Of a DNA stretch of 64,000 nt, positions 14,001-50,228 are shown in pieces. Under the pieces are notes generated by a model. That model worked only from the letters and a program-made list of their open reading frames with translations. It did not search any database and was not told the origin of the DNA. Source of the stretch: a virus (taxonomy: Duplodnaviria > Heunggongvirae > Uroviricota > Caudoviricetes); IMG/VR virus record IMGVR_UViG_3300017989_000089, positions 1-64,000 of that record; one strand, 5' to 3'. Every line of letters begins with the position of its first letter. Within the stretch, counting starts at the first letter, position 1. The position numbers and the translations under genes are program-made.

Positions 14001-16116
14001 CACCGGCTTCTATAGTGATACCAAGTTGCTCAGCCTGGTAACGCATTGCAGCGGTGACGGGGTCTGCATCTGGATCGATTTTCTCCATGGACATAATCCA
14101 ACCTTCGAAGAACTTAGTCATCTTGTCACTAAGTCCATCGAATAGGATTGCGAGTCCATCCAGTGCCGGTCCTATAAGTTTGAATCCTTCTACGAGTACT
14201 CCTATACCACTACCCCAATATAGTATTTGTTTACCGAACTCAATGACGGGACCCAAGACACCACCGACACTCCCACCGAATGATGTGATCCAAGTGATTA
14301 CTGCCGTGAATGTGGAAGCGATAGTGGTTCCCCAACCTTTTGCTACATCGATCCATCCCTTGATTGTCTCTATAATGATCCCGCCAGTATCCTTTGCAGC
14401 ACCGCCAAGAAGCTTGAATACTTCTATGGACCCATACCATGCTTTCTGGAAGATACCTGCATTGTTTATCGCATTCTTAGCTAGATCATCGGATTTGCCT
14501 TGCAACGCTTCCGCACGAGCAGACAGAAAATCTGCAGCGGCAACACCACTCAGGATCCCGGCGGCAATTGCAGCCGCTGCTGTACCAACCGAAGCAGCCA
14601 CAGGACCGACAGCTGATCCAATCGAACTAAAAGCTGGTCCCAGCTTTGTCACCATTGGTACGAGCTTGCTTAGGGCACCGCTGAACTTATTGGCGGCTGT
14701 TGTACCTTTATCGAAAGGCAACATCATTTGTCCACCAGCAACGCTTGTTGCCATGAAGACACCCTTCAGCTTCACGAGTTCACCGGCCAACAAAGCAAAG
14801 ACAGTCTTGGACTGGTTAATCAAACTGATTGTACCAACAAGAGCGCCACCCATGGTCCCAGCGGCGATAGTAAGAGCGACCAAGGCACCGGCCAATCCTA
14901 TCGCACCTAGAATTGCTACTTTGAACGGATCAGGTAGAGATTGGATCCACTTTGCCATGGTAGCTAGAGCACCAGCAAATTTGATCCCGACATCAATCAA
15001 GCCAAGGATTTGGTCCTTGAAGGCATTGAACAAATTGATCCCGATCTCTTCTACGGCTCTCTTCAAACGTCCGAATTGGGCAGATACAGTCGACAACTGA
15101 ACCGCGAACTCACGCTCCAACTTGAGGTGACGTTCACGATCCTTCGTAGCAGCATCCATCGCTTTGCGGAATAGATCGGCAGCACCAGCACCAGCCAACA
15201 TAGTTTGGACAGTACGCAGGTTCTGCAGATCCAACTTCTCGAGGGAGACGAGGAGTTTATCGGACCCTTCATCTTTCAGACGTCCCAGGCCTTCGATAAA
15301 CTGAGCAATCGCCTCACCGGCATCCTTTTGGAAGAGTTGTTGGAACTCATCCATGGACATCTTAGTAACGTTTGCAAACTCCTGAAGCTTTGGCCCACCG
15401 GTAGCGGTAGCCTCGATCATTTGTTGAACTAGCCGCTGTACCGCAGTCGAAGCACGTTCAGTACCAGGGACGACAGCGGAGAACCCACCAGCCAAACCAA
15501 GGAGTTGCTCACCGGAGAGATTGGCAGCTTTAGCCATACCACCGAGTAGCACGGAGAAGTTGAGGATTCGTTCTTCTGTAGTCGGCAGCTTATCGCCTAG
15601 GAAGGCGAGAGTAGACGCAAGCTTGTCGACGTCATCTATACTCTCTCCGGTGAGCGCAACGAGTCGAGCCAGACCTCTGGCAGCGGCTTCAGGAGTAAGT
15701 TCCGCGGCAGCAATGCTCAACTTAGCAATCGTATCTGTGAATTTGGCAAGCTGTTTCGTACCCTCTACACCAAGTTGTCCACCGATTCTCGTCAAGTCAG
15801 CGAGTTCAGCTGCAGCGATACCGGTCGCCTTGGAGGCATCCATCAAGGACGACTCCAACTTGGCGAAGTCCGTTGTGGCGGGGTCAACAGTCTTACGAAC
15901 TCCAGCCATCGCTGATTCGAAATCAGTACCAACTTTCAAAGCGAAGCCGGAGATAGCACCGAAGCTAGCCGCAAATGCTGCCCCCATTCTGTATCCGACG
16001 ACGTTAAGGGTTGCAGAGAATGACTGCACCGTCTTCATCGATTCGGACAAACCGGATCTGAACCCACGGGAGTCCACTCCCATGGACATCATTAGAGGGC
16101 CGATATCTCTTGCCAT
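11065..16116 (-). CDS. tail tape measure protein
   Basis: 1683 aa, Ala/Gly-rich with coiled-coil stretches. Contains a TP901-type TMP motif (..AQFIEGLGRLKDEGSDK..). Position after the tail chaperones. Confidence 0.8.
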   Translation of the reverse strand: MARDIGPLMMSMGVDSRGFRSGLSESMKTVQSFSATLNVVGYRMGAAFAASFGAISGFALKVGTDFESAMAGVRKTVDPATTDFAKLESSLMDASKATGIAAAELADLTRIGGQLGVEGTKQLAKFTDTIAKLSIAAAELTPEAAARGLARLVALTGESIDDVDKLASTLAFLGDKLPTTEERILNFSVLLGGMAKAANLSGEQLLGLAGGFSAVVPGTERASTAVQRLVQQMIEATATGGPKLQEFANVTKMSMDEFQQLFQKDAGEAIAQFIEGLGRLKDEGSDKLLVSLEKLDLQNLRTVQTMLAGAGAADLFRKAMDAATKDRERHLKLEREFAVQLSTVSAQFGRLKRAVEEIGINLFNAFKDQILGLIDVGIKFAGALATMAKWIQSLPDPFKVAILGAIGLAGALVALTIAAGTMGGALVGTISLINQSKTVFALLAGELVKLKGVFMATSVAGGQMMLPFDKGTTAANKFSGALSKLVPMVTKLGPAFSSIGSAVGPVAASVGTAAAAIAAGILSGVAAADFLSARAEALQGKSDDLAKNAINNAGIFQKAWYGSIEVFKLLGGAAKDTGGIIIETIKGWIDVAKGWGTTIASTFTAVITWITSFGGSVGGVLGPVIEFGKQILYWGSGIGVLVEGFKLIGPALDGLAILFDGLSDKMTKFFEGWIMSMEKIDPDADPVTAAMRYQAEQLGITIEAGEKGIDVANRLAEAARKEAEEFAASAEGIRQAAEAKINLRMENESIIESLRASAEEAKRLKDAASFLGIKEEELSKIISEQGESFLDAVDAMREKIKADEEAKKAAEALRSEIEALTIDTAVTEFENYQRALIEAFAAGKEFTDQGLDAMSKKLFELAQRAGMEVDPALENLRKKFNENLVASIDWAKGIDQAIKSASKSLKDFSDISDEALQPPAGFKFTGAPEMPSFGETPKDMPGTLGAAIVAETEKQMKEAEKQAKKFRSAVRDLAAAFQVLGIDADSAFGKIMGGLTVGMQVGAEMKSSFKDIQGIMQKEGGSLFSSEGLAAGMQFMGNVVQGAGTIWKATAGGGAKAIFGGAAAGMSMGAQIGGPIGAGIGAAVGAAIGGIRNLWKSESEKIAADIERDFGVKISEELAKAIEATQEKFDLGRFESRLLHLGDIMREAGGAVAFGMENAEKQVVDLLNSIELGTVPAEEGIKAVGDAFSMMAEETFEAGKFADAAMLNIINRARELGQEIPEIAAFISDQLAQAAEGVSKMIGQAMEGEGGEKMFGGIQVATAEDAQAQATIFAAAFFATLQEEGLLAAVDAFEPAFQELKAKLEAFGGEVDFGGVQRFFDIAKDPQFRPLLEGIGGLTEAMTGLGNAGYLTTETFGALQQQAGAAFEQLTAAGLSQEEALQQIAPFLQEALNASQMFGFELDENTQKLIDQAEAAGIGFKTDPMQRMVEVLEIVATKLGATAEELGLVGNAGAQAGQHVAESFGMAGEEIGRDLEFIEGRGREAFERFEQGASENLRQISGTGMNEMQTLSNAGQEAVNALTASFEQGTAKDLEQFQVLHQGVADGTLGIVESMSIAVDAVGALGDSALGSADKFAAMADAARNAAAAASSANQTGGGGPGAPEGGQFGLATTVSVPTPFVAGEAGEERVEITPGGGRGGGDTGGPSIVVLQIDGKTIGKVIGDLSRTGDVRIHSDAVGEFG

Positions 16117-19898: not shown

Positions 19899-22800
19899 TT
19901 ATGGTGCATCACAGGCACTATCTGTGCGTAGGATGCTGATTACAACCTCGGTTCCGTTTGCTAGCTCCGCAATCAATGCACAGTCGTTGCCGGGGCCACC
20001 GGCACCACGATCTGACACATCGGAGAAATACAACCTGATATCGCTTCCACCAGGACTGGCTATAGCACCGCTTTGGTGCTCTAGATCCAAGTAAGCCCCG
20101 CTTTGGAGAGCGACCGTTCCGGTAGCTGCCGGGATAGTCACCGTATTCACTCCAGATGGAGAAGCAAAATCAAGATAGGTACCAGTCGTTGTGTTTCCCC
20201 ACAAGAACGTGTGATCCCATCCAGTACCCATCACGTGCAAAACCTCGTTTGCAGAGGATGGAGAGATACCGGACCACTGCACACCAAACTTGTTCCCAGC
20301 GGTGTGAGCGGCAGACGGGAAGTTGACCTTAAAGAACTCACGTTGATCTCCGGCGCTGTCCATCGCAGTCTCGTTCGTCTGCTCCATCAGGAAGCTGTAG
20401 CCGGAGTTGCCCGCCGCAACCTCTGATCCCATCTCGAAGTTAGGATCCTGAGTTGTCAACCTTGCCCAACGTATTGGACCGGTTGATGGAGCGAAGACGA
20501 TCGACCCTAGATACGGTGTATAGGTCTCTAGCCTCTGGTTCGGATCTCCGAAGTCACGGAGCTTAATGTATCCATCCGTTGTTGCGTCGTACCCGAAGTG
20601 GAGTTCAACCTCACTTGGAATCTGGATATCACCGGACGCACCGAGTGTAATATCAGCACCATCATCAGTGATCTGTGAGTCCGCCATCTCACTACCGTCC
20701 CACTTCGGTATAGCGTCGGAGGTAAGGCTGGAACCAGAAAGCGGTACACTACTTGCACCTGGATCGAAATAGCTAGACATGACCCACTGTGCTGTTGGGG
20801 TTGTCTGGTAAACGAATCCAATAGTGGACCCGGGCGTAAAGGTGAACGCGGATCCAGGTACCTCTTGTTGTCCTGCGATATCGTTCACAGTGATATCGAC
20901 GGAACCCTGGTTGTGTACGTAGAACCATACACCAGGCATGTCTCCGGCGCTTTCCGCAATCGACAAATCACAAGGTCCGGTAATGCAGGCGACGTTTCTC
21001 CACGAACCGGTTGGGGATTGCATCGGAGTTTCGGTAAGTGTCCCCGCGTTCAATTGATGTGTCGAGATGTTGAATCTGCGCGCACTTGCGAACTGGAAGT
21101 AACCGTTATCGGATGATGCGACAATGTCGTCTCCGGCTCCGTTCGCAGTGAGCAATAGGTTTCCACCGTTCACGGCGAACTGAAGCGTACCTGCTCTAGT
21201 GATGGTTCCAGCCCCGTTATCACTCATAGATCCGTCTACGATATTCGGTGAAGCAAACCTTGGGATGACGTTTGTAGTTCCGGATCCTGCGCTAACCAGC
21301 GCAACCGTCCCTGTTGCGTCTGGAAAGGTAACAGTGTTTGTGCCCGATGGGGACGGCACGTCAATGAAGAACTGGTTTCCCTGACCGGAAGTCGCGTCCG
21401 TATTGACCTCCAGCAGGTGATCGAACGTATTCCTCATCGACAGCAACGATTCCGTCGCATTGGCACTGTTAGCAGAGAGTTGTACACGAAAAGCATTCAA
21501 CCAGTTATTGGCTCCTGTGTGTGCGGCGTTTGTGATACTGGAGGAATACATATTCTTGACATCGTTACCATCCATCACTGCAGGATTGCCTAGGTGAACT
21601 ATGTCATTGGAGCTAGTTCCAGCCGCTCCAAATGTGGCATGCACACGAAACCGCTCCTGGTTGTTCTCTTCCAGTATCTTAAAGATGCCGGTTGGGTAAC
21701 TATCTAGGTAGAACCAATGAACAAGCCCGCCTCCTGTGGTCCCGTACTCGATATCAGTTCCCCAGTCCCAGATGTTGGAGTCCACCAGCTTTGTTCCATC
21801 CCAATAAGGGATCTTGTTTGCTGTCAAGCCGGATTCAAGTACGACTGTACCGCTAGCGTTTGGAAAAAGGATTGTTCTGTCAGCAGTAGGATTGACGACA
21901 TGAACTGTAGTCTCCCACGCATCGCCGACGCTCCCCTCAAATGCTAGACCTGCATCCATGTAACGCCCGAAGTAGATACCCCACTCGTCGGCATTTGCAT
22001 TTGGTGCGGTGAACGAATCGAGATAGAGCCAGGTCCATTCTCCGCCAGTGTGCGCCCCCTGAGCCACTTGCATATTGAATAGCTTTTGCACATCACCTGG
22101 AGCCATCGCGATAGTTGTTATGTTCCCAGCACCCATATAGCTACCGTTGGCAGCTGGTGTGAACAACTGGAACCACCACTCATCGGCGGTTGCATCATCA
22201 TCTATCACGAAATTGAAACTTACATCAGCCCCAAGTCTCATACCGTATGGGGCATCAGCATGGATGTGGCGGATCTCTCCGATATCGTTGGAGGTCTGAT
22301 GAAAGTTTATACCGTAGACAACCTCGGAGGAATCGTCCGCATCACCAAAGTTCATGTTGATGTAGTTGGTCTTTCCACTAGACAATGCCGTAATGTCCGG
22401 ATTGAAATTGAAGAGGTTGATTGTATTCCCCGCACCAGGGTCATTAAGCGTTGGTGCGATGGAAAGTACATCCCCTCCTGATGCCGCTGCTGGCACTGCC
22501 GCCTCTGCAATCTCGGAGTCAACTAGCTCGCCGGTTGTGCTTCCCTGGTACACATGTCTAGTTGCTGTCGACGTCACAACTCCAAACGTCCCAGACACGT
22601 CAGGTACAGCGATAGTCCGATTGGCGGTAGGAGTATTGAATCCAATATCAGTCGTGAACGTCGCAGTCTCGTAGCGAATCTCATTGTCCCAACCAGTCCC
22701 GAAGTTGATCGCGTTGTGGGTCGCGTTGGCTCCTGGTGTGATGTTCGAGAACTTGAAGCCATTCGCAACGTTGCCCGTTCCTGTATTTGCTGTAAACGTA

Positions 22801-24017
22801 GGCGAAAGTCTGAAAAAGTCCACAAGTGTTCGTGTGGTCCCGTTCATATCGCGGGCGTAGGCGTCGTACATAAACCAGCCAGTATCTGGAATCCCTGGTG
22901 CAGGTACATTGCTTCTATACCTGACATTGTAATCACCAGAATTCAATCCTGCCGCACCAACCGTCCATTCTTGGTAGGAGCCGTTGTTAATCAACGTGTC
23001 AATCACATCGAGGCGGTGCCGTCTATGAACCGTTCCAGTCCCGGAATCGAAATAGACTTCGTAGATCCCTCCGCCTCCTGGCCAACTAGAAAACAATAGC
23101 TTGTAGTCGTTAGGGAACCGTACACCATTTACACCATCATCGGTGATCATAGAGTCACCGATTGTAGTTGCTCCTGTGAACTTGGTCATGTAGTTTGTGG
23201 TTCCACCAGCAGAGAGCATAATCGTACCAGTGGCCGCAGGGATCGTTACAGTATTGTTCCCAGACGGAGCAGCAAAATCCAGGTACGTATTGTTCGCTCC
23301 AGCTGCATCACCCTTGTTCCAATCGTGATCCCATCCGCTACCAAGCTGTGTGTGGATCTCAGTTGCGGCAGATGGAGTGATAGATCCCCAAAACGCACCA
23401 TATTTGATTCCTGCAGTATGTGCTCCGGAAGCGGGTTCAATGTTAAGGTGGTACCGTCGATCATCTGCACTGTCCATCGCACTTTCAGTACCCTGACCGA
23501 TAATATTGAACTGAGGGCCAGACGTACCGGCTAGCACAAGAGCATTCATATTGATGTATGGCTTGTTGGCTCCACCATAATCGTAGATGACACTCCAAGG
23601 ACCACCAACGAACATCGCAATACCGGCGTTGTTGTTTTGTGCATCGATCTCGAAACGATCTGCAGCACCACCGAACGTGCGGTGGATAAGCGTAGTAATG
23701 TTGGCACCGGTACCAAAATCAACCTGATAGTCATAAGGAATGATCAGATTGGTGAGCGTGTCTTGAAGCGCGCTCGAGTCCTGAGTATGAGCACCACTCC
23801 AACGAACAAGATACGGAGACACACCAGTACCGGTCACATTATCAGCAGGGATAGGCCCACCACCACCACCACAGACGAAGTTGTCGTAGGCGTCAAAGCA
23901 GTTCTCGAGTGCCATAATCGCCTTAGACGACAGACCTCCGCCTTGTCTGCTACTCTGTGCAGATGCCATCCCGGCGATAGCCAAGAACACGACAAAGAAT
24001 AGGAATGTGCGTTTCAT
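19899..24017 (-). CDS. giant Sec-signal-peptide protein with internal ~150-250-aa repeats
   Basis: 1372 aa. N-terminus MKRTFLFFVVFLAIAGMASA-QSS is a typical signal peptide. At least four repeat units share ..AHTAG.K(Y/F)G..W...(P/S)..A.E...G.GWDH......YLDFA.PSG.NTVT(I/F)P(A/D)ATGT(I/V)AL.S. Confidence 0.6.
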   Translation of the reverse strand: MKRTFLFFVVFLAIAGMASAQSSRQGGGLSSKAIMALENCFDAYDNFVCGGGGGPIPADNVTGTGVSPYLVRWSGAHTQDSSALQDTLTNLIIPYDYQVDFGTGANITTLIHRTFGGAADRFEIDAQNNNAGIAMFVGGPWSVIYDYGGANKPYINMNALVLAGTSGPQFNIIGQGTESAMDSADDRRYHLNIEPASGAHTAGIKYGAFWGSITPSAATEIHTQLGSGWDHDWNKGDAAGANNTYLDFAAPSGNNTVTIPAATGTIMLSAGGTTNYMTKFTGATTIGDSMITDDGVNGVRFPNDYKLLFSSWPGGGGIYEVYFDSGTGTVHRRHRLDVIDTLINNGSYQEWTVGAAGLNSGDYNVRYRSNVPAPGIPDTGWFMYDAYARDMNGTTRTLVDFFRLSPTFTANTGTGNVANGFKFSNITPGANATHNAINFGTGWDNEIRYETATFTTDIGFNTPTANRTIAVPDVSGTFGVVTSTATRHVYQGSTTGELVDSEIAEAAVPAAASGGDVLSIAPTLNDPGAGNTINLFNFNPDITALSSGKTNYINMNFGDADDSSEVVYGINFHQTSNDIGEIRHIHADAPYGMRLGADVSFNFVIDDDATADEWWFQLFTPAANGSYMGAGNITTIAMAPGDVQKLFNMQVAQGAHTGGEWTWLYLDSFTAPNANADEWGIYFGRYMDAGLAFEGSVGDAWETTVHVVNPTADRTILFPNASGTVVLESGLTANKIPYWDGTKLVDSNIWDWGTDIEYGTTGGGLVHWFYLDSYPTGIFKILEENNQERFRVHATFGAAGTSSNDIVHLGNPAVMDGNDVKNMYSSSITNAAHTGANNWLNAFRVQLSANSANATESLLSMRNTFDHLLEVNTDATSGQGNQFFIDVPSPSGTNTVTFPDATGTVALVSAGSGTTNVIPRFASPNIVDGSMSDNGAGTITRAGTLQFAVNGGNLLLTANGAGDDIVASSDNGYFQFASARRFNISTHQLNAGTLTETPMQSPTGSWRNVACITGPCDLSIAESAGDMPGVWFYVHNQGSVDITVNDIAGQQEVPGSAFTFTPGSTIGFVYQTTPTAQWVMSSYFDPGASSVPLSGSSLTSDAIPKWDGSEMADSQITDDGADITLGASGDIQIPSEVELHFGYDATTDGYIKLRDFGDPNQRLETYTPYLGSIVFAPSTGPIRWARLTTQDPNFEMGSEVAAGNSGYSFLMEQTNETAMDSAGDQREFFKVNFPSAAHTAGNKFGVQWSGISPSSANEVLHVMGTGWDHTFLWGNTTTGTYLDFASPSGVNTVTIPAATGTVALQSGAYLDLEHQSGAIASPGGSDIRLYFSDVSDRGAGGPGNDCALIAELANGTEVVISILRTDSACDAP

Positions 24018-35952: not shown

Positions 35953-37467
35953 CTATTTCTCTGGCGTTGTGGCACGCTTCGTCTCTCTTCCTCTCCGACG
36001 CTTGCGGAGTTCAAGGAGATGAGGATCCGTCTCCTTCACTCTAGCTTCCTTTTTACGAACTTCGGAAGACGTCCTCAATACAGTAGTAGGTACGGGAAGG
36101 TTGAAGCTATCGATCATTTCCCTCCCGTTCTTACCGGCATAGATTAGAAGGTGTCCCGGCTTGAGAATATCCAGGGCATCAAGCAGATTACGCTCAATAA
36201 TTGGCACCCTCTCCTGATCAAACTCCGTTTGGAACTGTGTTGCAACGATAGGAGGATTGAAAGGAATACCCATCAAGCAATATTGTTGTGACTTTTCCTG
36301 GAAGAACTCAAGTCTCGGGATCACCTTCAGCCCAGCCTCTTGGAAGTAACGCCCAAGCCAGGCAGAGCGATAAAGTGACCAGATATGTGCGGCGGTCGGA
36401 GCGAAATCCCACAAGGAGAAATCAGGGACGACGATCGTCTTCACACCAGCGACTAGAATCTGACCGACACGATACGCTGGAGTCGCCCACCAGGTCTCGA
36501 TGTGGGCGTCATGCGTGAAGAAAGAAAAGATCGTACGATCGAACGGCAATCCACGGTGTGGGCATGCACCATAGTTGTAGTAGTAGAAGCTCTTTCCATC
36601 GTCTGGAGTGGATAGGCGATCGCCCCAGATCTTGATATCGTCTGGAAGTGTCTCGGCGAGCATGTCAGGACGGAGGTTAGGAATCCCGATCGAATTGGCA
36701 CCGGGGAACGTGATCCATCCACCACCTTGTTTCTTGTTGACTCCAGCAATGCACTGATCTGCGAAGTCATCATCCTCTGGAAGCCAGTACTCCTCTTCAG
36801 AAAGTTTGAAGACACCTTCAAGCTCAAAAGGGAGTTGATCATAGATCTGCTGATCGTCGAGCTTCTTTTCGTGGGGTTCTTTCTCCTCTTCCTGCTCTTC
36901 TTGTGAGTCGGTGGGTTCCCGTTCGTTTTGTTCCGATGGCTGTTGTTCACCGATTTCGTTGATCTCTGGCACTTCGAACTCTTCTTCGTCGTGATGCTCA
37001 ATTTCACGCTCCACTTCGTTTGCTATTTCCGCAATGTCGGCCTCGAGTACAGCTTCAGCGGCGATAATATCATGATCGAACTCCTCAACCATGCGCTGAA
37101 GCTCAGCCTCGTCGAACCCTCCCTCGACTGTCAATAGATTGGCTGTAGCTCCGTACTCCTCTGCATCTTCCTCGGACTCGAAGGTCACGCCGCGGATGAC
37201 CGGAATACACCATGCACCATTCTGATCCAGTTTTATACGCTTTGGGGGCGGCTTACCGGAGTCGCGCTCTTCCTCAAGTTTCTCGAGCCTTCCATGACCG
37301 GCTACGAGCTTACCAGAGCCCTCATCTATCAATACAGGATCCACGAAGCCGAATCTGGCGAAGGAGTCCTTGATTTTCTCGGAATGGAGTTTGGGATTGC
37401 GCTCCATCTTGATTAGATCTTGTAGACGGTGGTACTCTATCCACATGTCTTTTTCTTCTGACATCAT
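35953..37467 (-). CDS. ParB-like nuclease domain protein with DUF4417-like C-terminal domain
   Basis: N-terminus (ERNPKLHSEKIKDSFARFGFVDPVLID...GHGR) is ParB/Srx-like, followed by an acidic linker and a large C-terminal domain. Start chosen at ATGATG (37462-37467), which sits behind GGAGGT. Confidence 0.45.
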   Translation of the reverse strand: MMSEEKDMWIEYHRLQDLIKMERNPKLHSEKIKDSFARFGFVDPVLIDEGSGKLVAGHGRLEKLEEERDSGKPPPKRIKLDQNGAWCIPVIRGVTFESEEDAEEYGATANLLTVEGGFDEAELQRMVEEFDHDIIAAEAVLEADIAEIANEVEREIEHHDEEEFEVPEINEIGEQQPSEQNEREPTDSQEEQEEEKEPHEKKLDDQQIYDQLPFELEGVFKLSEEEYWLPEDDDFADQCIAGVNKKQGGGWITFPGANSIGIPNLRPDMLAETLPDDIKIWGDRLSTPDDGKSFYYYNYGACPHRGLPFDRTIFSFFTHDAHIETWWATPAYRVGQILVAGVKTIVVPDFSLWDFAPTAAHIWSLYRSAWLGRYFQEAGLKVIPRLEFFQEKSQQYCLMGIPFNPPIVATQFQTEFDQERVPIIERNLLDALDILKPGHLLIYAGKNGREMIDSFNLPVPTTVLRTSSEVRKKEARVKETDPHLLELRKRRRGRETKRATTPEK

Positions 37468-37481
37468 TACCTCCAGGCCGC

Positions 37482-37511
37482 AATATACCATGTCTCATTC
37501 TCCCTCTACAA
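37482..37511 (-). promoter_or_regulatory. candidate sigma70-like promoter for the leftward structural operon
   Basis: On the minus strand, TTGTAG, 18 nt, TATATT lies just upstream of the ParB-like gene RBS. Confidence 0.3.
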
Positions 37512-44050: not shown

Positions 44051-44377
44051 TTGAGGGTACAAAAGAGGGTAACACAGAAAGTAGGTAATATGACCTGGAA
44101 TTTAGGTGTTGCTAAATGGATCGCCTTATTGACTGTGGTCACCTGCATAAGATGGGTAGATATCACAGGTGATTCTGGTTGGGTATCCAAAGAGGAGATT
44201 ACCGAGGCAGCAGAGATTACCAGCTGTGGGATCCTTGTGAAAGAGGATGACGAATTTCTCTGGCTCGCTATGGACGCATCTGAGGACGAGGAGTTCAATT
44301 CAACCGGTGTCTTCCCAAAGGGGGTCATCCTGAAGAGGATAGATACCGAAGTTGACATGGATCTCGAAAAGGACTAG
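44051..44377 (+). CDS. hypothetical protein
   Basis: 108-aa ORF with a hydrophobic N-region and acidic C-terminus. Confidence 0.3.
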   Translation: MRVQKRVTQKVGNMTWNLGVAKWIALLTVVTCIRWVDITGDSGWVSKEEITEAAEITSCGILVKEDDEFLWLAMDASEDEEFNSTGVFPKGVILKRIDTEVDMDLEKD

Positions 44378-44409
44378 ACGCAGAGAGCCCAACCACGTAT
44401 AATTCGGAC

Positions 44410-44578: not shown

Positions 44579-44654
44579 GCGTGTGTGGTGCTAATGGTAA
44601 GTCGCAGGCCTTCCAAGCCTTGAGATGCGGGTTCGAATCCTGTCACACGCTCCA
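44579..44654 (+). tRNA. tRNA-Gly (TCC)
   Basis: Acceptor gcgtgtg/cacacgc. Anticodon stem aggc/gcct, loop ctTCCaa. T-arm gcggg-ttcgaat-cctgt. CCA. Confidence 0.65.
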
Positions 44655-44668
44655 AAAGAGCACAACCT

Positions 44669-45244
44669 ATGCCACAGTATGCCCGACCTATTGAAGACGC
44701 TTTTCTGTATATCCCTCCACCTGAGTATGATGGTGGGCCATTCGGGGACAGCTGGCGCGATAACATCGGAGGCACGTCTGACTTGTTCCAGCGAATTGGG
44801 ACGAACATTCCGAACGACACCGACTACGCTGAATCAGATCTAATACTAGGTCCCCTCTTTCCAGATGCTGACGAAGATGGCGATCCTGGAGAAGCAGCTT
44901 TTACGGAATCCACTGCCTATGTTTGCAAACTGTCCGAAGTGGTTGATCCTGTGATAGACGAAGGCTTCACCATACGTGCAAGGTTGGCGAAGAACGAACC
45001 TGATGGTGTGAATGTCGACTGCCTCATAGAACTGCGGAAGGACTACAATGTAGAGGGTGATGCGCTCGAGAGCGATGGTGACCTTGGTCAGCTTATCGCT
45101 TCCCACATCTTTGAAGGCATCACTTCCGAGTTCATCGAGTACAGCTTTGTCGTTACACCGGAGGAAGCAGCCAGTATAGATAACTACGACGATCTCTATC
45201 TGCGTTTTGTTTTCTCTGCATCCCTCAAGGGAGTGTACGCATGA
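44669..45244 (+). CDS. paralog family member A (unknown function)
   Basis: 191 aa. Shares N-terminal G.TS.L...I, central Y.CKLS.V.DP, DLTVEL-like and C-terminal DLYLRFV motifs with the next two ORFs. Confidence 0.5.
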   Translation: MPQYARPIEDAFLYIPPPEYDGGPFGDSWRDNIGGTSDLFQRIGTNIPNDTDYAESDLILGPLFPDADEDGDPGEAAFTESTAYVCKLSEVVDPVIDEGFTIRARLAKNEPDGVNVDCLIELRKDYNVEGDALESDGDLGQLIASHIFEGITSEFIEYSFVVTPEEAASIDNYDDLYLRFVFSASLKGVYA

Positions 45245-45717
45245 CCCAGATAGCATTACCTGAAGAAGATGCGTACGCCGACGCGACATGGAGTGGCGGC
45301 GGTGACTTGATTGGTGAACCACCAACCTACCCCGACGTTTCATATCCAGACCTCTACACGATGATCAGAGATCAATCTGATGACTTTTGGATGCACACAG
45401 AGCATCTTCCCAGCAATGTTATCTACGTCTGCAAGCTTTCCCAAATTGTGAACCCGGAGGATCTCGCGGGGGACTGGACCGTACGTGTAAGAGCAAAGAA
45501 GGCGAGCACATCTATCACACCACTCGATCTCACCGTTGAGCTATACCAGAACTATGGTACCGGTGCCGGTCCACCACCTACCGGCTTGATTGCATCCGAA
45601 ACATTCTACGATATCCCGAGTACGCTGACTGATCTAGAATTGGTCGTACCTGAGGAGAACAGAGAGTTCGTTCTAGATCCGATGCTTCTCTATGTTCGTA
45701 TCATCGCGGACACATAG
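45241..45717 (+). CDS. paralog family member B (unknown function)
   Basis: 158 aa. IYVCKLSQIVNPED...DLTVELYQ...MLLYVRII. Start overlaps the stop of member A. Confidence 0.5.
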   Translation: MTQIALPEEDAYADATWSGGGDLIGEPPTYPDVSYPDLYTMIRDQSDDFWMHTEHLPSNVIYVCKLSQIVNPEDLAGDWTVRVRAKKASTSITPLDLTVELYQNYGTGAGPPPTGLIASETFYDIPSTLTDLELVVPEENREFVLDPMLLYVRIIADT

Positions 45718-45731
45718 GAGGAATTTGAAAA

Positions 45732-46172
45732 ATGTCTCAGTTTGGAAGACCTAGCACCGATGCACATATCGGTAACTGGGAGGATCAACTTGGTGGCACA
45801 TCTCTCATTTACCAAGCTATTGACGAGGTGTCTCCAAGCGATTCCGACTATGTTACCTCCGAATATGCGCCCGCGAACAGCCCCTACGTAACGAAACTGT
45901 CTGCCGTAACGGATCCGAACGTAACAAGCGGGCACTACATCCGTTTCAGGACAAGGAAAGATCCGGCTACAGGTTCGCAGGTTGATCTCACTGTTGAACT
46001 ACGTGAAGGATACGTTAGCGAAGCCAGCCAAGGAACACTGATCGCGACAACCACAATCGTCAACGTACCAAACGTGTTCACCGAGTACTTCTACCTACTG
46101 TCCGCAATCGAGGCCGGAAACATCACCGACTATTCCGACCTCTTCTTGAGATTCGTTGCCAACCAACCATAA
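45732..46172 (+). CDS. paralog family member C (unknown function)
   Basis: 146 aa. YVTKLSAVTDPN...DLTVELREG...DLFLRFV. Confidence 0.5.
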   Translation: MSQFGRPSTDAHIGNWEDQLGGTSLIYQAIDEVSPSDSDYVTSEYAPANSPYVTKLSAVTDPNVTSGHYIRFRTRKDPATGSQVDLTVELREGYVSEASQGTLIATTTIVNVPNVFTEYFYLLSAIEAGNITDYSDLFLRFVANQP

Positions 46173-46184
46173 GGAGTAAAGGAA

Positions 46185-46496
46185 ATGGCTTTTGGAACCT
46201 ACAAAGAAGACGTGACCGCTGAGGCGATCAAAACTCAGCTTGGGCGCACCGCAAAGGATTTGGCGCGTGCAATAGAGAACGGAAACATGCTAAACGAAGA
46301 GTGGGAGGCCTACAAGCAAGGCAAGACCGACGTCGACATTCAATCTGCTCTTGGTATCTCTTCGGATGAACTCACTGATGTCAAACAGGCGTTTATCTCT
46401 CTCAGGGATCTGTATAGCATTGCGAGCGGTGATGATACAGTCACCATTCCAACAGGAATTGGCACCTATTTTCGCCGCCTAAGGGAGTTCTCGTAA
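46185..46496 (+). CDS. hypothetical protein
   Basis: 103-aa ORF behind RBS AAGGAGTAAAGGAAATGG. Confidence 0.4.
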   Translation: MAFGTYKEDVTAEAIKTQLGRTAKDLARAIENGNMLNEEWEAYKQGKTDVDIQSALGISSDELTDVKQAFISLRDLYSIASGDDTVTIPTGIGTYFRRLREFS

Positions 46497-46801
46497 TGTC
46501 CCTCTACGCCAAACTGGTTGGGACGGATCCAACAAAGCGAGTTGCCGTCCACAACTTCATGGCTGCTATCGCTGAGAGACATCGCGGGATCCTTACGAGA
46601 GATGACATCATCCTGATGTTCAATCTCGAGGTCGCAGATCACTTGGAGCTAGACGAAATCCTGGATAAGTCCGATGCATTGGCTGCAGACAGGCGCTTCG
46701 AGTTCAGCAGAATGATCCACGATATCTTGTTGCTCTCCGAATCCGGGCTTGCGTTCACGACTAGCGAAGACTTCTACAGCAGGATAGAAGCATTCACCTA
46801 G
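46496..46801 (+). CDS. hypothetical protein
   Basis: 101 aa. Start overlaps the previous stop (TAATG). Confidence 0.4.
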   Translation: MSLYAKLVGTDPTKRVAVHNFMAAIAERHRGILTRDDIILMFNLEVADHLELDEILDKSDALAADRRFEFSRMIHDILLLSESGLAFTTSEDFYSRIEAFT

Positions 46802-46814
46802 GAAGGGGCTTCCG

Positions 46815-48806
46815 ATGGGTGCGAAGTTCTCGACCATACAAACGCAGTCTATCACCTCTACGGGGGGTCAGGAGATTCTGACCCCTCTAGATGGTGCTGT
46901 ACCAAGGGCTGCGATCATCTTCTCCACTTACTCCAATCCGATATCTACAATCACGGATCATGCACGCATGTCCATTGGAGTTGCTACCGCTCTTGATCAA
47001 TATGTATGGTGTGGGCGTGGTCGAGACTCTTCAGGTACCACACAGACGAGAAGAGTATCCAACTCTGGAAGCATTGTACAACATCTAGAATACAATGGTA
47101 ACACCCTCACCGCCGATGCACGACTAAGCTCATTTGTGCCGGATGGACTAAGACTCGATTGGGTAACACCTCCACCGGATCCGGTGAGCTTGTTCATAAT
47201 CTTGATCTCTGGTGACGACGTACTTGTTCACGCAGGTGTGGAGAATCTCCTGAATACAATGGATCTAGAGATTGATGTTACCGATCCTGGATTCAGACCG
47301 GATTTCCTATTTCTAGGTGGTGGGAGCAATCTATTTGATGGCACCGTTGAACAAGACTATCGCTGCTCTTTTGGCATCGCAGTCAACGGTGGTAATCAGT
47401 ACGGGCAATATTTCGAGTATCCTGCAAACACAGGATCCGGCACAGCCGAGGCGGAGACATTCACCAATAGAGTCGCTGCGGATAGAACGAACTACACTGT
47501 CGAGGTGGATAACTTTGATGCAGATGGATTTTCTTTGTTTGCTCGTGGGGGTGGAGGGCTCGATCATGATATAGCCTACCTCGCGATCAGCCTTGGTTTC
47601 GGATCATACCTTCAAGAGTTCACATACGACACTCCTACAGCTACAGGACCATACCAAAAAACTGGGATCGGTTTCACACCTGACTTCGTGTTCCTCGGCA
47701 CGAACATGCTCGATGCTCGAGACTCTTACACGACAGATCTGAAGGCTGGGGCAAACGGCTTCGCTTCCGTCTTCACTGAGCCGCTCCCATCACGTGACTT
47801 CGCCGGAATGGTGACCAATGAAGTAGGAGCAGGTACTACCAACTGTGCTTCATTGATGGATTCTCGAGTAACACTCAACCAACACGACAGATCTATAGGT
47901 ATCCAGGGCGACCTCATTTCTCTAGATGCGGTTGGCTTCACGATCGACTACTCCTACGTTATGGGATCTGCGCGAAAGTGGTGGGGATTTGCCGTCAATG
48001 ACCCTCCTGGCAGACCTCGCACACAGGTGTCATGGGCTGCGTTCGAAGTGGGCGATCCCGTGCCCGACGCAAGAGGTAACGTAAGCTGGGCTGAATTCGA
48101 GGTGCCCGAGTATGTCCCTTGCGCCGGACAGGTATCCTGGGCCGCACTCAAGACACCAGATGTTCATGGAGCAGGGAGCACTTGTTGGGTAAGCTGGGGA
48201 CTGTTCGAGGTTCCTGACTCCGACTCTGCAATCATCACACAGGTATCACTCGAGACTCCTGATCCTCGTAGAAGAGGTAGGGTCTCGTGGGCAACCGTGC
48301 AGTTCGATGCGCCACCTGGTGAAGGTACAAAGCTGATCAGAGTATATTTGAAAGACTTCAATAGAGATCTGGTTCTAGAAGAACTGGATGCTTATGGACT
48401 GAGGCCAGACATTCTATTCGCCCTTGCTGGATTTGAACCGCTGGACAGTTCGATCGACTCCAACCTCCGAGTCTGGACACCATCATCGAACCCAGATCCT
48501 TACTACAATGATGTGGATGTAGAAGTCGGAGAGATCTGGCTCGAGTATAGCTATACACTGACGGCACAAAATATAGCAGACATCGAACTCGTCTTGTATA
48601 ACCACAACGCTGGCTACCTCACTGAGGATCAGCAGGAGTACGATCAGGATGTAGAAGATCGTGCAACCTTGCAGCAGTATCTCGATAACCCTTGCGCCTC
48701 CTTGACACCAAGTGAACAAACTGATGCTCTTTGCCGAATCATGAGGCTGCTGCTAAGGTATCATCCGCACGACTTGCCAACATTCCCGGACGAGTACGAT
48801 GGCTAA
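46815..48806 (+). CDS. large repeat-containing protein (unknown; structural/adhesin-like)
   Basis: 663 aa. Two tandem domains are marked by GFRPDFLFLGGGSN and GFTPDFVFLGTNM. A run of five to six ~18-aa repeats follows ((V/I)SWA.FEVP...). Confidence 0.55.
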   Translation: MGAKFSTIQTQSITSTGGQEILTPLDGAVPRAAIIFSTYSNPISTITDHARMSIGVATALDQYVWCGRGRDSSGTTQTRRVSNSGSIVQHLEYNGNTLTADARLSSFVPDGLRLDWVTPPPDPVSLFIILISGDDVLVHAGVENLLNTMDLEIDVTDPGFRPDFLFLGGGSNLFDGTVEQDYRCSFGIAVNGGNQYGQYFEYPANTGSGTAEAETFTNRVAADRTNYTVEVDNFDADGFSLFARGGGGLDHDIAYLAISLGFGSYLQEFTYDTPTATGPYQKTGIGFTPDFVFLGTNMLDARDSYTTDLKAGANGFASVFTEPLPSRDFAGMVTNEVGAGTTNCASLMDSRVTLNQHDRSIGIQGDLISLDAVGFTIDYSYVMGSARKWWGFAVNDPPGRPRTQVSWAAFEVGDPVPDARGNVSWAEFEVPEYVPCAGQVSWAALKTPDVHGAGSTCWVSWGLFEVPDSDSAIITQVSLETPDPRRRGRVSWATVQFDAPPGEGTKLIRVYLKDFNRDLVLEELDAYGLRPDILFALAGFEPLDSSIDSNLRVWTPSSNPDPYYNDVDVEVGEIWLEYSYTLTAQNIADIELVLYNHNAGYLTEDQQEYDQDVEDRATLQQYLDNPCASLTPSEQTDALCRIMRLLLRYHPHDLPTFPDEYDG

Positions 48807-49113
48807 ACGTGTCGATGCGAACCAAGCGCAGATAGTCAAAGAACTGCGAGATGCTGGATGTTCCGTCCAGTGTTTACACGAAGTTGGGAAGGGATGCCCT
48901 GATATCCTGGTGGGCTATGAGGGCTACAATTTCCTTTTCGAGATCAAGGATCCATCCAAACCGCCTAGCAAGAGAAAGTTGACTTCCGATGAAGAAACAT
49001 GGCATAATTCTTGGGCTGGAGATGCTACCATCATCTTCACATCAGAGTATGCGCTTCACTATATGGAGTCCTGTGTTGGCTGTAGCTCAAGTAGTCAGAG
49101 CACCGGCCTGTGA
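48799..49113 (+). CDS. VRR-NUC-domain (PD-(D/E)xK) nuclease-like protein
   Basis: 104 aa. GCPDILVGYEGYNFLFEIKD matches the VRR-NUC core (G.PD......EvK). The 3' end runs into tRNA-His. Confidence 0.45.
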   Translation: MAKRVDANQAQIVKELRDAGCSVQCLHEVGKGCPDILVGYEGYNFLFEIKDPSKPPSKRKLTSDEETWHNSWAGDATIIFTSEYALHYMESCVGCSSSSQSTGL

Positions 49114-49151
49114 AGCCGGGGATGCGGGTGCGAGTCCCGTCGGCCACCCCA
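49075..49151 (+). tRNA. tRNA-His (GTG) with encoded G-1
   Basis: 8-bp acceptor in which G-1 pairs with C73. D-stem gctc/gagc. Anticodon stem ccggc/gccgg, loop ctGTGaa. T-loop tgcgagt. CCA. Confidence 0.65.
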
Positions 49152-49184: not shown

Positions 49185-50228
49185 GTGAAACAGTATATTG
49201 GTTTCGTAAGGGACCACTCCATCTCAATGACCCACCTGGCAGCAGGAGCAGCTAGGGACTACAACACAAACGTCAAGGCAGTTCAAGACGCAGCGAACGC
49301 ACACCAACTGGATACGATCGTAAGCACAGTACTGTGTGGGATCAAAGGCGAAGGTTGGAATGATCGCGGCGTGGTAAAGCGTGAGATCGTCAATTCGAAC
49401 GTTCACATGCTGAAGCCCATTCCAGAACAAACATACCTTACGAATGGGTCCTCCACTCCTCTTCTCGACTCCGTTGGAGAACTGATCGAGATCATGGAGT
49501 CTATGCCTGATGCACAAGACCAGAATGTCTCCTTCCTTCTGATTGTGATCACAGATGGACAGGAGAACGACTCACACAAGTGGGATAGGTACAGTCTCAC
49601 TGAGAAGATCAAGAAGCTTCAGTACTCGGACCGCTGGACCTTCACATTCAGGGTTCCCCGCGGAGAGACTTGGTACCTCGAGCAACTTGGCATCCCACGC
49701 GGCAACATCCTCGAATGGGATCAGACGCAGCATGGATTGGAGAGAGCGACCAAAGACACAGTGCGTGCGGTGACTCATTACTACACGCAGCGCAGCAAGG
49801 GTGTGACAAGCTCTCGCTCATTCTACGCTGACCTCAGTGACGTCAGCATTCACGAGGTCAAACGAAACCTCAAGGATATCTCGAAGGAGATCGAGGTGTG
49901 GCCCGTCAAAAATGCTGGCAGTGAAATCCGAACCTTCTGTGAGTTCCACACCAACGATGGTGACTACCTGAAGGGTGCGGCTTTCTACGAACTCACGAAG
50001 CCGGAGACAGTTCAGGACTACAAGCAGATCGTGATCAGGAATCGGAAGAACGGAAAGTGCTATGGTGGTCCCGCAGCAAGACAAATGCTGGGGCTCCCCG
50101 ATTTCGGACAAGTCAGACTGCGTCCTGGCGACCACGGGCAGTACGACATCTTCATTCAGTCGACGAGCGTGAATCGGAAGCTGATGAAGGGTACACGTGT
50201 CGTGTATTGGGAAGGCGCGGTGCGGTAA
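49185..50228 (+). CDS. von Willebrand factor A (vWA) domain protein
   Basis: 347 aa. MIDAS motif DHSISM (DxSxS) near the N-terminus, plus VITDGQEN. Confidence 0.55.
   Translation: MKQYIGFVRDHSISMTHLAAGAARDYNTNVKAVQDAANAHQLDTIVSTVLCGIKGEGWNDRGVVKREIVNSNVHMLKPIPEQTYLTNGSSTPLLDSVGELIEIMESMPDAQDQNVSFLLIVITDGQENDSHKWDRYSLTEKIKKLQYSDRWTFTFRVPRGETWYLEQLGIPRGNILEWDQTQHGLERATKDTVRAVTHYYTQRSKGVTSSRSFYADLSDVSIHEVKRNLKDISKEIEVWPVKNAGSEIRTFCEFHTNDGDYLKGAAFYELTKPETVQDYKQIVIRNRKNGKCYGGPAARQMLGLPDFGQVRLRPGDHGQYDIFIQSTSVNRKLMKGTRVVYWEGAVR

What the first reader, a model, noticed from the sequence alone, without database searches (positions are those of the whole stretch)
44669..48806. Operon of three tandem paralogs, two small ORFs and a 663-aa protein with short VSWA-FEVP repeats, bracketed by tRNAs
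ORFs 44669-45244, 45241-45717 and 45732-46172 are clearly paralogous. They share Y.CKLS.V.DP, DLTVEL and a C-terminal DL(Y/F)LRFV, with no recognisable family. The operon ends in a 663-aa protein with an internal domain duplication (GFRPDFLFLGG versus GFTPDFVFLGTN). That protein also carries five to six tandem ~18-aa repeats ((V/I)SWA(A/E)(F/L)EVP...). The unit sits between tRNA-Gly and tRNA-His, away from the structural arm. It could be an accessory structural set (decoration, fibers), a receptor-binding module or an entirely uncharacterised system.
Basis: seen in the sequence. Interest (0 to 1): 0.6.

Follow-up and report, generated by a model that had tools for sequence, protein, structure and literature searches.

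The report
Phage lectin-like proteins plus docking-repeat scaffold
This phage gene cassette encodes three small sugar-binding-like proteins and a large protein carrying a string of short peptide repeats that, in hundreds of uncultured phages, always travel with that small protein, which suggests a previously undescribed way of building a multi-headed adhesion appendage.

Summary
Six tightly packed + strand genes (44669-48806) start 14 nt after tRNA-Gly. They comprise three significant paralogs, two small proteins and a 663-aa protein.

The paralogs belong to a large unannotated family: 4,782 clusters, no Pfam/PHROG/NCBIfam match, and no hit in cultured phages. A confident model shows a CBM-like beta-jelly-roll.

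The 663-aa protein has three parts:
- Three homologous ~130-aa subdomains (a triplication, not a duplication). Their model best matches single-chain C1q/TNF trimers.
- Five or six VSW repeats.
- A C-terminal domain found only in this lineage.

The repeats are a diverged form of a widespread 16-aa unit (~RRAQVSWAELEVPxAP).

Two links connect domain and repeat. In 32 of 50 loci, a stand-alone family member has an array protein just downstream. In many fusion proteins, each CBM-like domain is directly followed by one motif. About 25 clusters insert three domains plus 1-3 motifs into a known virion structural protein.

I infer an externally displayed adhesin. Motif-less lectin-like subunits would dock onto the repeat array of a scaffold that carries a C1q-like head. 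Binding, virion location and ligand are all untested.

The parts
44579..44654 (+). tRNA-Gly (tcc). Upstream boundary, 14 nt before the first cassette gene.
   Evidence: ARAGORN. A promoter-like site lies at 44375-44403, upstream of tRNA-Asp and tRNA-Gly.
44669..45244 (+). Paralog 1 (191 aa). A divergent CBM-like jelly-roll family member with no cis motif.
   Evidence: Family profile E 7.5e-45. BLASTP to paralog 3 gives E 7e-26. Orthologs occupy the same position in L006 and L007.
45241..45717 (+). Paralog 2 (158 aa). The most divergent CBM-like family member, with no cis motif.
   Evidence: Family profile E 1.5e-37. BLASTP gives E 6e-14 and 2e-9. Positional orthologs exist in L006 and L007.
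45732..46172 (+). Paralog 3 (146 aa). The canonical stand-alone family member, ending LRFVANQP with no cis motif.
46185..46496 (+). Small protein p103 (103 aa). Function unknown; possibly an assembly factor or adaptor.
   Evidence: Conserved only in the syntenic cassettes of L006 and L007. No family match.
46496..46801 (+). Small protein p101 (101 aa). Function unknown.
   Evidence: Conserved in L006 and L007, and in the simpler cassette of L013, where it lies between the CBM-like gene and the array gene (jackhmmer E 3.5e-31). The only Pfam hit is a weak sub-threshold match to DUF7418.
46815..48008 (+). 663-aa protein, residues 1-398. Three homologous ~130-aa beta subdomains, modelled as a C1q/TNF-like single-chain pseudo-trimer ('head').
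48021..48308 (+). 663-aa protein, residues 403-498. An array of five clear and one degenerate VSWxEFEVP-type repeats; the proposed docking sites.
   Evidence: The region matches the canonical 16-aa arrays of L003 (phmmer domain E 4e-9). The repeat number varies between orthologs: 5-6, 7, 11 and 6-10. AlphaFold2 pLDDT is below 50.
48312..48806 (+). 663-aa protein, residues 500-663. A lineage-specific C-terminal domain, partly helical; the candidate anchor.
   Evidence: Found only in the window, P0001, L006 and L007 (jackhmmer). The AlphaFold2 model is low-confidence, with helices at 584-648.
49076..49151 (+). tRNA-His (gtg). Downstream boundary; overlapped by the 3' end of ORF 48799-49113.
   Evidence: ORF list.

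Best explanation
The cassette encodes a multi-subunit, externally displayed adhesin or receptor-binding appendage.

The 663-aa protein is the scaffold. It has an N-terminal globular head made of three C1q/TNF-like jelly rolls in one chain. A central array of five or six short VSWxEFEVP repeats follows. A C-terminal domain probably anchors it to the particle or to a partner.

The three small paralogs are lectin-like (CBM-fold) subunits that lack the motif. I propose that they dock non-covalently onto the repeats, roughly one domain per repeat. The result would be a multivalent 'beads on a string' binder.

The two ~100-aa proteins would be assembly factors or adaptors.

Shown:
- the folds, at model level
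- the homologies
- the genomic coupling of domain and repeat, both in cis and in trans
- the fusion of both elements, and of the head domain, to virion or tail-hub proteins in other phages.

Inferred:
- physical docking of domain on repeat
- the stoichiometry
- glycan binding
- virion attachment in this particular phage.
For: 1. Cassette conservation. The whole six-gene cassette recurs in L006 and L007, with a variable repeat number. A simpler version (one domain gene, a p101 homolog, then a head-plus-array protein) occurs in L013.

2. Coupling in trans. 32 of 50 loci with a stand-alone family member have an array of at least three motifs downstream on the same strand within 5 kb. Nine of the 18 negatives are contigs that end within 2.7 kb. 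The window itself is a regex false negative. No arrays occur elsewhere in about 1 Mb of fetched DNA, nor in the 15 loci where the domain is embedded in large proteins.

3. Coupling in cis. In proteins such as P0229, P0138, P0158, P0155, P0198, P0219 and P0134, each domain is followed, after a short (often Gly-rich) linker, by exactly one motif. Overall, 37 of 63 eligible domain ends have a motif within 45 residues, against 0.011 expected.

4. Fusion to a virion protein. About 25 representative clusters have an N-terminal leader, three tandem domains and 1-3 regex-detected motifs (three by eye in the three sequences read), then a body that matches phrog_3287 'virion structural protein' (E 1.8e-44). 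That body also matches GenBank 'stabilization protein' and LUZ24 gp56 'phage particle protein'.

6. Fusion partners of the paralog domain. They are Laminin_G_3, Beta_helix, polysaccharide lyase, chondroitinase B and Ig-like domains.

7. Head domain. It best matches single-chain C1q/TNF trimers. Its homologs are N-terminal extensions of GTA-type hubs or lie next to T7-type fibre genes or in tail-like modules. C1q-like domains in environmental phages are regarded as putative receptor-binding proteins (PMC7468147).

8. The window paralogs lack a cis motif, as expected if the motifs are supplied in trans.
Against: - No physical or structural evidence shows that the domain binds the motif. The repeat region is modelled at pLDDT below 50, and no complex prediction could be run.
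- The paralog model is a complete fold without the motif, so strand complementation is not required.
- In the window, L006 and L007 the cassette lies among tRNAs and nucleic-acid-metabolism genes on the non-structural arm.
- In most other phages the pair sits between terminase or portal and scaffold or capsid genes, not with tail genes. The attachment site on the virion, head or tail, is therefore unresolved.
- Motif counts are not simple multiples of the domain-gene number.
- 26 of 63 eligible domain ends have no motif.
- Several loci with ample downstream sequence have no regex-detected array (L031, L045, L047, L049, L053, L066).
Confidence: 0.45

Rival explanations
1. The proteins are virion-associated, but the repeats are only a spacer, stalk or oligomerisation element (for example a beta-rich neck). 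The CBM-like proteins would attach elsewhere, or act as independent decoration or adhesin proteins. Under this reading, co-localisation reflects co-function, not direct docking.
For: In the fusion proteins the motifs lie as a block between the third domain and the virion-protein body, where a linker or neck would sit. In the hub fusions P0003 and P0004, a different 17-aa repeat occupies the same head-to-hub position. The paralog fold is complete without the motif. Repeat number varies freely between orthologs.
Against: A mere spacer would not be expected to keep near-invariant W/F, E, E and P positions across unrelated phage lineages (230 units). It would also not be expected to follow single domains one-for-one after a flexible linker, including at the very C-terminus of P0134. 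Array-only proteins of 100-300 aa have nothing to space.
Confidence: 0.22
2. The pair is a capsid (head) decoration or head-fibre system rather than a tail or receptor-binding device. It would bind environmental or host-surface glycans to improve adsorption or retention.
For: In at least three or four lineages the domain gene and the array gene lie inside the head and packaging block. The observed orders are TerL-portal-CBM-array-scaffold-MCP, TerL-CBM-array-portal-scaffold-MCP, and portal-CBM-...-array-adaptor. In MW202710 the same portal-to-scaffold slot holds other accessory genes.
Against: The fusions place the same elements in a phrog_3287 protein that lies after the capsid gene and before the tail fibre. 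The head-domain homologs are fused to tail hubs. There is no similarity to any known decoration protein. Gene position alone is weak evidence.
Confidence: 0.18
3. The cassette is not a virion component. It would be an intracellular or cell-surface accessory system, for example superinfection exclusion, host-envelope remodelling or a secreted binder, expressed with the tRNA and nucleic-acid-metabolism arm.
For: In the window, L006 and L007 the cassette sits among tRNAs, an RNA ligase, an Hjc-like nuclease and RtcB, on the strand opposite the structural arm. No virion data exist. The family is absent from all cultured phages searched.
Against: No signal peptides or transmembrane segments were noticed by eye in the six proteins; this was not formally tested. 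Both elements are fused to virion structural and hub proteins elsewhere. In other lineages the pair lies within morphogenesis operons.
Confidence: 0.12
4. The arrays are precursors of multiple short peptides, released by cleavage at the dibasic RR sites that flank many units. The CBM-like protein would be their binder or processing partner.
For: RR occupies the two positions before the core in about 70% of 230 units. Many array proteins are almost nothing but repeats.
Against: The arrays in the window, L006 and L007 lack RR; they have GQ or RG instead. In fusion proteins the motifs are covalently embedded between folded domains of a structural protein. No protease is consistently linked.
Confidence: 0.03

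Closest known systems
C1q-like-domain putative receptor-binding proteins of environmental phages (hypervariable metagenomic-island genes; PMC7468147 and the marine study it cites)
   Same: The N-terminal 398 residues are modelled as C1q/TNF-type jelly rolls. Homologs sit beside tail-fibre genes or on tail hubs.
   Different: There is no sequence match to the Pfam C1q or TNF families. Three jelly rolls lie in one chain as a pseudo-trimer, rather than as a homotrimer. The head is N-terminal and is followed by a peptide-repeat array.
Carbohydrate-binding modules (CBM4, CBM6, CBM16, CBM32; galactose-binding-like jelly rolls), including CBM-type decorations on phage tail proteins
   Different: It belongs to no CAZy or Pfam CBM family. 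It is mostly a stand-alone ~146-aa protein. It is coupled to a specific 16-aa peptide motif. No ligand is known.
Rhodobacter GTA g13 / phiJL001 gp84-type tail hub proteins (PF09931 + PF09356)
   Same: P0003 and P0004 carry the same N-terminal head domain, then short repeats, then these hub domains. They lie in a GTA-like tail module.
   Different: The window protein has no hub domains. Its C-terminal domain is unrelated and lineage-specific.
phrog_3287 'virion structural protein' / GenBank 'phage stabilization protein' (for example LUZ24 gp56)
   Same: About 25 clusters insert three CBM-like domains plus 1-3 motifs into this protein.
   Different: The window phage encodes the elements as separate genes and no phrog_3287 body was found in the window. 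Pfam PF11134 is not matched by the fusion bodies.
Cohesin-dockerin scaffoldins of cellulosomes, and split tag-catcher domain-peptide pairs (analogy only)
   Same: A scaffold protein carries a tandem array of short docking units. Separately encoded modules each carry, or recognise, one unit. Cis and trans versions both exist.
   Different: There is no sequence or fold relationship. Here the array units are 16-aa peptides, not folded cohesins. Binding has not been demonstrated.

Membership tests
Carbohydrate-binding module (CBM) families | Beta-sandwich or jelly-roll fold | tested here: met
Carbohydrate-binding module (CBM) families | Sequence membership in a curated CBM family | tested here: not met
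   No Pfam or NCBIfam hit at E up to 1 or 0.1. Profile search against PDB sequences finds nothing below E 0.7.
Carbohydrate-binding module (CBM) families | Demonstrated carbohydrate binding | not testable with these tools
   Needs glycan arrays or binding assays.
C1q/TNF superfamily | Ten-stranded jelly-roll protomer | tested here: met
C1q/TNF superfamily | Three protomers packed around a threefold axis | tested here: inconclusive
   199-233 residues align to single-chain trimers. That implies at least two subdomains superpose together. The model coordinates could not be inspected.
C1q/TNF superfamily | Sequence signature (Pfam C1q or TNF) | tested here: not met
   No Pfam hit.
Named phage tail-fibre, tailspike or RBP families | Sequence membership (Pfam or PHROG tail categories) | tested here: not met
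Named phage tail-fibre, tailspike or RBP families | Presence in the virion and a role in adsorption | not testable with these tools
   No cultured relative carries the cassette.
GTA g13 / phiJL001 gp84 hub (PF09931 + PF09356) | Presence of both hub domains | tested here: not met
   Absent from the 663-aa protein. Present in homologs P0003 and P0004.
Phage stabilisation protein (Pfam PF11134, P22 gp10 type) | Pfam match | tested here: not met
   No hit for the fusion bodies or for the window C-terminal domain at E up to 1. Only phrog_3287 and GenBank names link them.
Head decoration proteins (lambda gpD, T4 Soc/Hoc, phage L Dec types) | Sequence or fold similarity to a known decoration protein | tested here: not met
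Scaffold-docking systems (cohesin-dockerin-like logic) | Tandem docking units on one protein, and a partner module found with one unit in cis or encoded nearby in trans | tested here: met
   (architecture and synteny only).
Scaffold-docking systems (cohesin-dockerin-like logic) | Physical binding of the module to the unit | not testable with these tools

The most novel reading that the evidence does not exclude
The ~146-aa jelly-roll domain and the 16-aa VSWxELEVP motif form a specific domain-peptide docking pair, a natural 'catcher and tag'. Phages would use it modularly. In cis it would lock domains. In trans it would load many lectin-like subunits onto a repeat scaffold. That would create multivalent adhesion fibres whose valency is tuned simply by repeat number. 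This would be a viral counterpart of the cellulosome principle and a new protein-assembly module. The family has thousands of members and none has been characterised.
Probability: 0.35. Interest if true: 0.8.

Novelty: new variant of a known kind. Interest (0 to 1): 0.66.

Why it matters
If the docking model holds, it defines a widespread but unrecognised way for phages to build and tune multivalent adhesins. The domain family has about 4,800 clusters at 50% identity and is absent from cultured phage genomes.

It would also provide a compact, portable domain-peptide pair that could serve as a protein-engineering tool.

Even without docking, the work gives a first structural and contextual annotation for three large 'hypothetical' families: the CBM-like domain, the 16-aa array proteins, and the triple C1q-like head. 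It links all three to the virion surface and to host recognition. This is directly testable with complex prediction, pull-downs and cryo-EM.

Tried and rejected
- Nucleotide and protein searches of the region, the 663-aa protein, paralog 3 and the two-domain relative P0155 against 50,697 deposited phage genomes found nothing.
- Pfam, PHROGs and NCBIfam gave no family for any of the six proteins. Weak hits (DUF7418, GbpA_D3, Tox-ART-HYD1, DUF1431) were below threshold or were repeat artefacts.
- A profile search of PDB sequences with the paralog family found nothing meaningful.
- A scan of reference bacterial genomes with the family pattern found no relatives, but only one narrow pattern was used.
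- A scan of viral contigs with fusion protein P0136 matched no pattern.
- The word-indexed protein search was saturated for the 663-aa protein and its N-domain, giving only 5 and 9 hits and missing the L006/L007 orthologs.
- The repeat and C-terminal regions of the 663-aa protein could not be modelled (pLDDT below 50).
- I considered a trimeric triple-beta-spiral shaft for the repeats and consider it unlikely. The hydrophobic spacing does not fit the adenovirus or reovirus pattern (own knowledge), and the head is a single-chain pseudo-trimer.
- One-to-one orthology between the window's three paralogs and the three tandem domains of the fusion proteins was rejected. The two triplications are independent.
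- p103 and p101 are not detectably related to each other.
- There is no DNA-level tandem repeat and no compositional island.
- Membership of the fusion bodies in Pfam PF11134 is not supported.


Full report
**Observation**

The six + strand ORFs are present exactly as described:
- 44669-45244
- 45241-45717
- 45732-46172
- 46185-46496
- 46496-46801
- 46815-48806

They are packed with overlaps of 1-4 nt or gaps of 12-14 nt. No sigma-70-like promoter or intrinsic terminator lies inside the cassette on the coding strand.

tRNA-Gly ends 14 nt before the first gene. tRNA-His follows at 49076. A seventh ORF (48799-49113; phrog_93 'endonuclease', E 4.8e-7) overlaps both the stop of the 663-aa gene and the tRNA.

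The window belongs to a phage with 27 tRNA genes. Its terminase, portal, protease and major capsid genes lie on the minus strand. The capsid protein is 55% identical to those of Arthrobacter siphoviruses and 38-43% identical to Pseudomonas KPP23 and Roseobacter RDJL phages.

The three small ORFs are true paralogs (BLASTP E 7e-26, 6e-14 and 2e-9; alignment).

The 663-aa protein has five clear VSW repeats and one degenerate one.

**The paralogs**

None of the six proteins matches Pfam, PHROGs or NCBIfam. tblastn of paralog 3, of the 663-aa protein and of a two-domain relative against 50,697 deposited phage genomes finds nothing.

The paralogs nevertheless belong to a very large family:
- 408 hits in the word-indexed search.
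- 4,782 representative clusters at E ≤ 1e-3 in an exhaustive HMMER search of 1.84 billion representatives, of which 2,903 are at E ≤ 1e-10.

The typical member is a stand-alone protein of 146-148 aa.

When the domain is part of larger proteins, its partners are glycan-binding, glycan-degrading or adhesin-type modules (57 proteins surveyed):
- Laminin_G_3
- right-handed beta-helix
- polysaccharide lyase
- chondroitinase B
- fn3, Big_2 and He_PIG
- BspA-type LRR

**The 663-aa protein**

Its full-length relatives are P0001 and the orthologs in L006 and L007.

The N-terminal ~400 residues alone recur in three other settings:
- Proteins whose C-terminal half is a GTA/phiJL001-type tail hub (PF09931 + PF09356; P0003 and P0004). 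These lie in a GTA-like tail module: DUF2460 / x / hub / x / Phage-tail_3 + Rcc01698_C / DUF2793.
- A protein directly after the T7-type tail-fibre gene of a T7-like contig (P0005).
- A tail-like module next to a lytic transglycosylase (P0129).

The AlphaFold2 model is confident over most of residues 1-398 and poor beyond. Each subdomain has ten strands.

Weaker matches follow to phage baseplate, fibre and RBP proteins. BFVD's top hit is a DUF7483 protein of an uncultured phage.

I therefore read the N-terminal region as a single-chain pseudo-trimer of C1q/TNF-like jelly rolls. I could not inspect the coordinates, so the threefold packing is inferred from the alignment lengths.

C1q-like domains in environmental phages are regarded as putative receptor-binding proteins located in hypervariable islands (PMC7468147).

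The C-terminal domain (residues 500-663) is confined to the window's own lineage.

**The repeats and their link to the paralog domain**

This is the main finding.

The window repeats match arrays in unrelated phages. Across 27 array proteins and 230 units, the dominant period is 16 residues. The consensus is about RRAQVSWAELEVPxAP, with near-invariant W/F, E, E and P. Many array proteins are little more than 4-17 units. Others carry various N-terminal domains.

There are three lines of coupling.

1. In trans.
   - Among 50 loci with a stand-alone family member, 32 have an array of at least three units downstream on the same strand within 5 kb (often the next gene).
   - Nine of the 18 negatives are contigs that end within 2.7 kb.
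   - The window itself is missed only because its units are diverged.
   - No arrays occur anywhere else in the roughly 1 Mb fetched, nor in the 15 loci where the domain is embedded in large proteins.

2. In cis.
   - In many multidomain members, each domain is followed after a short (often Gly-rich) linker by exactly one unit.
   - Examples are P0229 '…LFLRFVASAGGGGVKRRAQVSWAEFEVPDAP', P0138, P0158, P0155 (twice), P0198, P0219 and P0134 (three times, including its C-terminal end).
   - Overall, 37 of 63 eligible domain ends have a unit within 45 residues, against 0.011 expected from the background density.

3. Fusion to a virion protein.
   - About 25 distinct clusters of ~1,000-aa proteins share one plan: a ~65-aa leader, three tandem domains, 1-3 regex-detected units (three by eye in the three sequences read), and a ~440-aa body.
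   - The body matches phrog_3287 'virion structural protein' over profile positions 69-524 (E 1.8e-44).
   - The body also matches GenBank proteins annotated 'phage stabilization protein', LUZ24 gp56 'phage particle protein' and similar. In one annotated genome the homolog lies after the capsid gene and before the tail fibre.
   - L059-L063 carry this fusion.
   - Pfam PF11134 is not matched, so I do not file the body under the P22 gp10 family.

The window's three paralogs carry no unit of their own. The units are supplied by the 663-aa protein.

The triplication in the window lineage is shared with L006 and L007. It arose independently of the three tandem domains of the fusion proteins.

**Context**

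The complete cassette (three paralogs, p103, p101, head-array-C-domain protein) recurs in L006 and L007. The neighbours are also the same: DUF3310, RNA ligase, an Hjc-like nuclease, the 347-aa phrog_26613 protein and RtcB. The repeat number is 11 or more in L006 and 7 or more in L007, against 5-6 in the window.

L013 carries a simpler version: one domain gene, a p101 homolog, then a head-plus-array protein.

In other lineages the domain gene and the array gene lie inside the head and packaging block:
- TerL-portal-CBM-array-96aa-scaffold-MCP (L040, L041, L012).
- TerL-CBM-(103 aa)-array-portal-scaffold-MCP (L033, L018, L039).
- TerL-portal-98aa-CBM-…-array-adaptor-like (L027).
- CBM-array-…-TerL-…-portal (L003).

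Gene position therefore argues as much for a head-associated role as for a tail-associated one. The fusions argue for tail-proximal display.

**Mechanism**

My best reading (confidence about 0.45) is an externally displayed multi-subunit adhesin.

The 663-aa protein is the scaffold, with a C1q-like head, a docking array and an anchor. The motif-less CBM-like paralogs would bind the array units. The two small proteins would assist assembly.

| Status | Items |
|---|---|
| Shown | Folds (model level); homologies; cis and trans coupling; fusion of both elements to virion or hub proteins |
| Inferred | Physical docking; stoichiometry; glycan binding; virion attachment in this phage |

The rival readings are:
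- The repeats are a mere stalk or neck (0.22).
- The pair is a capsid decoration rather than a tail device (0.18).
- The cassette has a non-virion function (0.12).
- The arrays are cleaved peptide precursors (0.03).

**Novelty**

Lectin-like and C1q-like accessory receptor-binding modules are a known kind in phages. I therefore rate this 'new variant of a known kind'.

The new elements are:
- The domain-peptide pair, with both cis and trans forms and with tandem arrays.
- The single-chain triple C1q-like head.
- The size of the wholly uncharacterised family, and its absence from cultured phages.

If the docking model is correct (about 0.35), it would be a new assembly principle for viral adhesins.

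Noticed in passing
window 38479-63456: There are 27 tRNA genes, all on the + strand, interspersed with small ORFs. That is an unusually large tRNA complement if the phage genome is about 83 kb, the length of the longest contig carrying the window's proteins.
   Followed up: partly
window 48799-49151: ORF 48799-49113 (104 aa; phrog_93 'endonuclease', E 4.8e-7) overlaps the stop of the 663-aa gene by 8 nt. Its last 38 nt overlap tRNA-His. Either the ORF end or the co-transcription arrangement is unusual.
   Followed up: no
window 49185-50228: A 347-aa protein (phrog_26613, E 9e-101; weak sub-threshold VWA hit) is a conserved downstream neighbour of the cassette in L006. Its function is unknown.
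   Followed up: partly
L068 3446-14773: The head-domain homolog P0132 (715 aa) lies next to a block of nonulosonic-acid and sugar biosynthesis genes (NeuB, CTP_transf_3, aminotransferase, acetyltransferase, epimerase), with an MptE-like gene upstream. This hints at phage-encoded glycosylation of virion or host-surface proteins.
   Followed up: no
P0003, P0004, P0005 (L002 2061-4283; L001 10001-11452): A different 17-aa repeat, R(I/V)SQVARL(S/T)LxExxxD or ATQAMLETL-like, lies between the C1q-like head and the hub domain or the C-terminus. It occupies the same position as the VSW repeats.
   Followed up: no
L006 (contig of 314,847 bp): The same cassette and neighbours occur on a 315-kb contig, against 72 kb (L007) and 83 kb (the window's own contig). 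This could be a jumbo relative, a concatemer or a mis-assembly.
   Followed up: no
window 44669-46172 versus P0135-P0276 fusion proteins: Three copies of the CBM-like domain arose independently in the window lineage (separate genes) and in the phrog_3287 fusions (tandem domains). This suggests that three copies have a functional meaning, for example a pseudo-trimer.
   Followed up: partly
array proteins in L003-L061: About 70% of the 230 repeat units are preceded by RR (a dibasic pair). The arrays of the window, L006 and L007 have GQ or RG instead.
   Followed up: partly
window 11065-16116 and 19899-24017 (minus strand): Two very large structural-arm ORFs (1,683 and 1,372 aa) have almost no family matches. 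The only hit is a weak phrog_38058 'tail fiber' match in the 1,372-aa protein.
   Followed up: no
window 35953-37491 (minus strand): A 512-aa protein combines ParB-like nuclease matches (phrog_940, phrog_620) with a DUF4417 domain. A DUF4417 protein (508 aa) is also called in L006; homology between the two was not tested.
   Followed up: no
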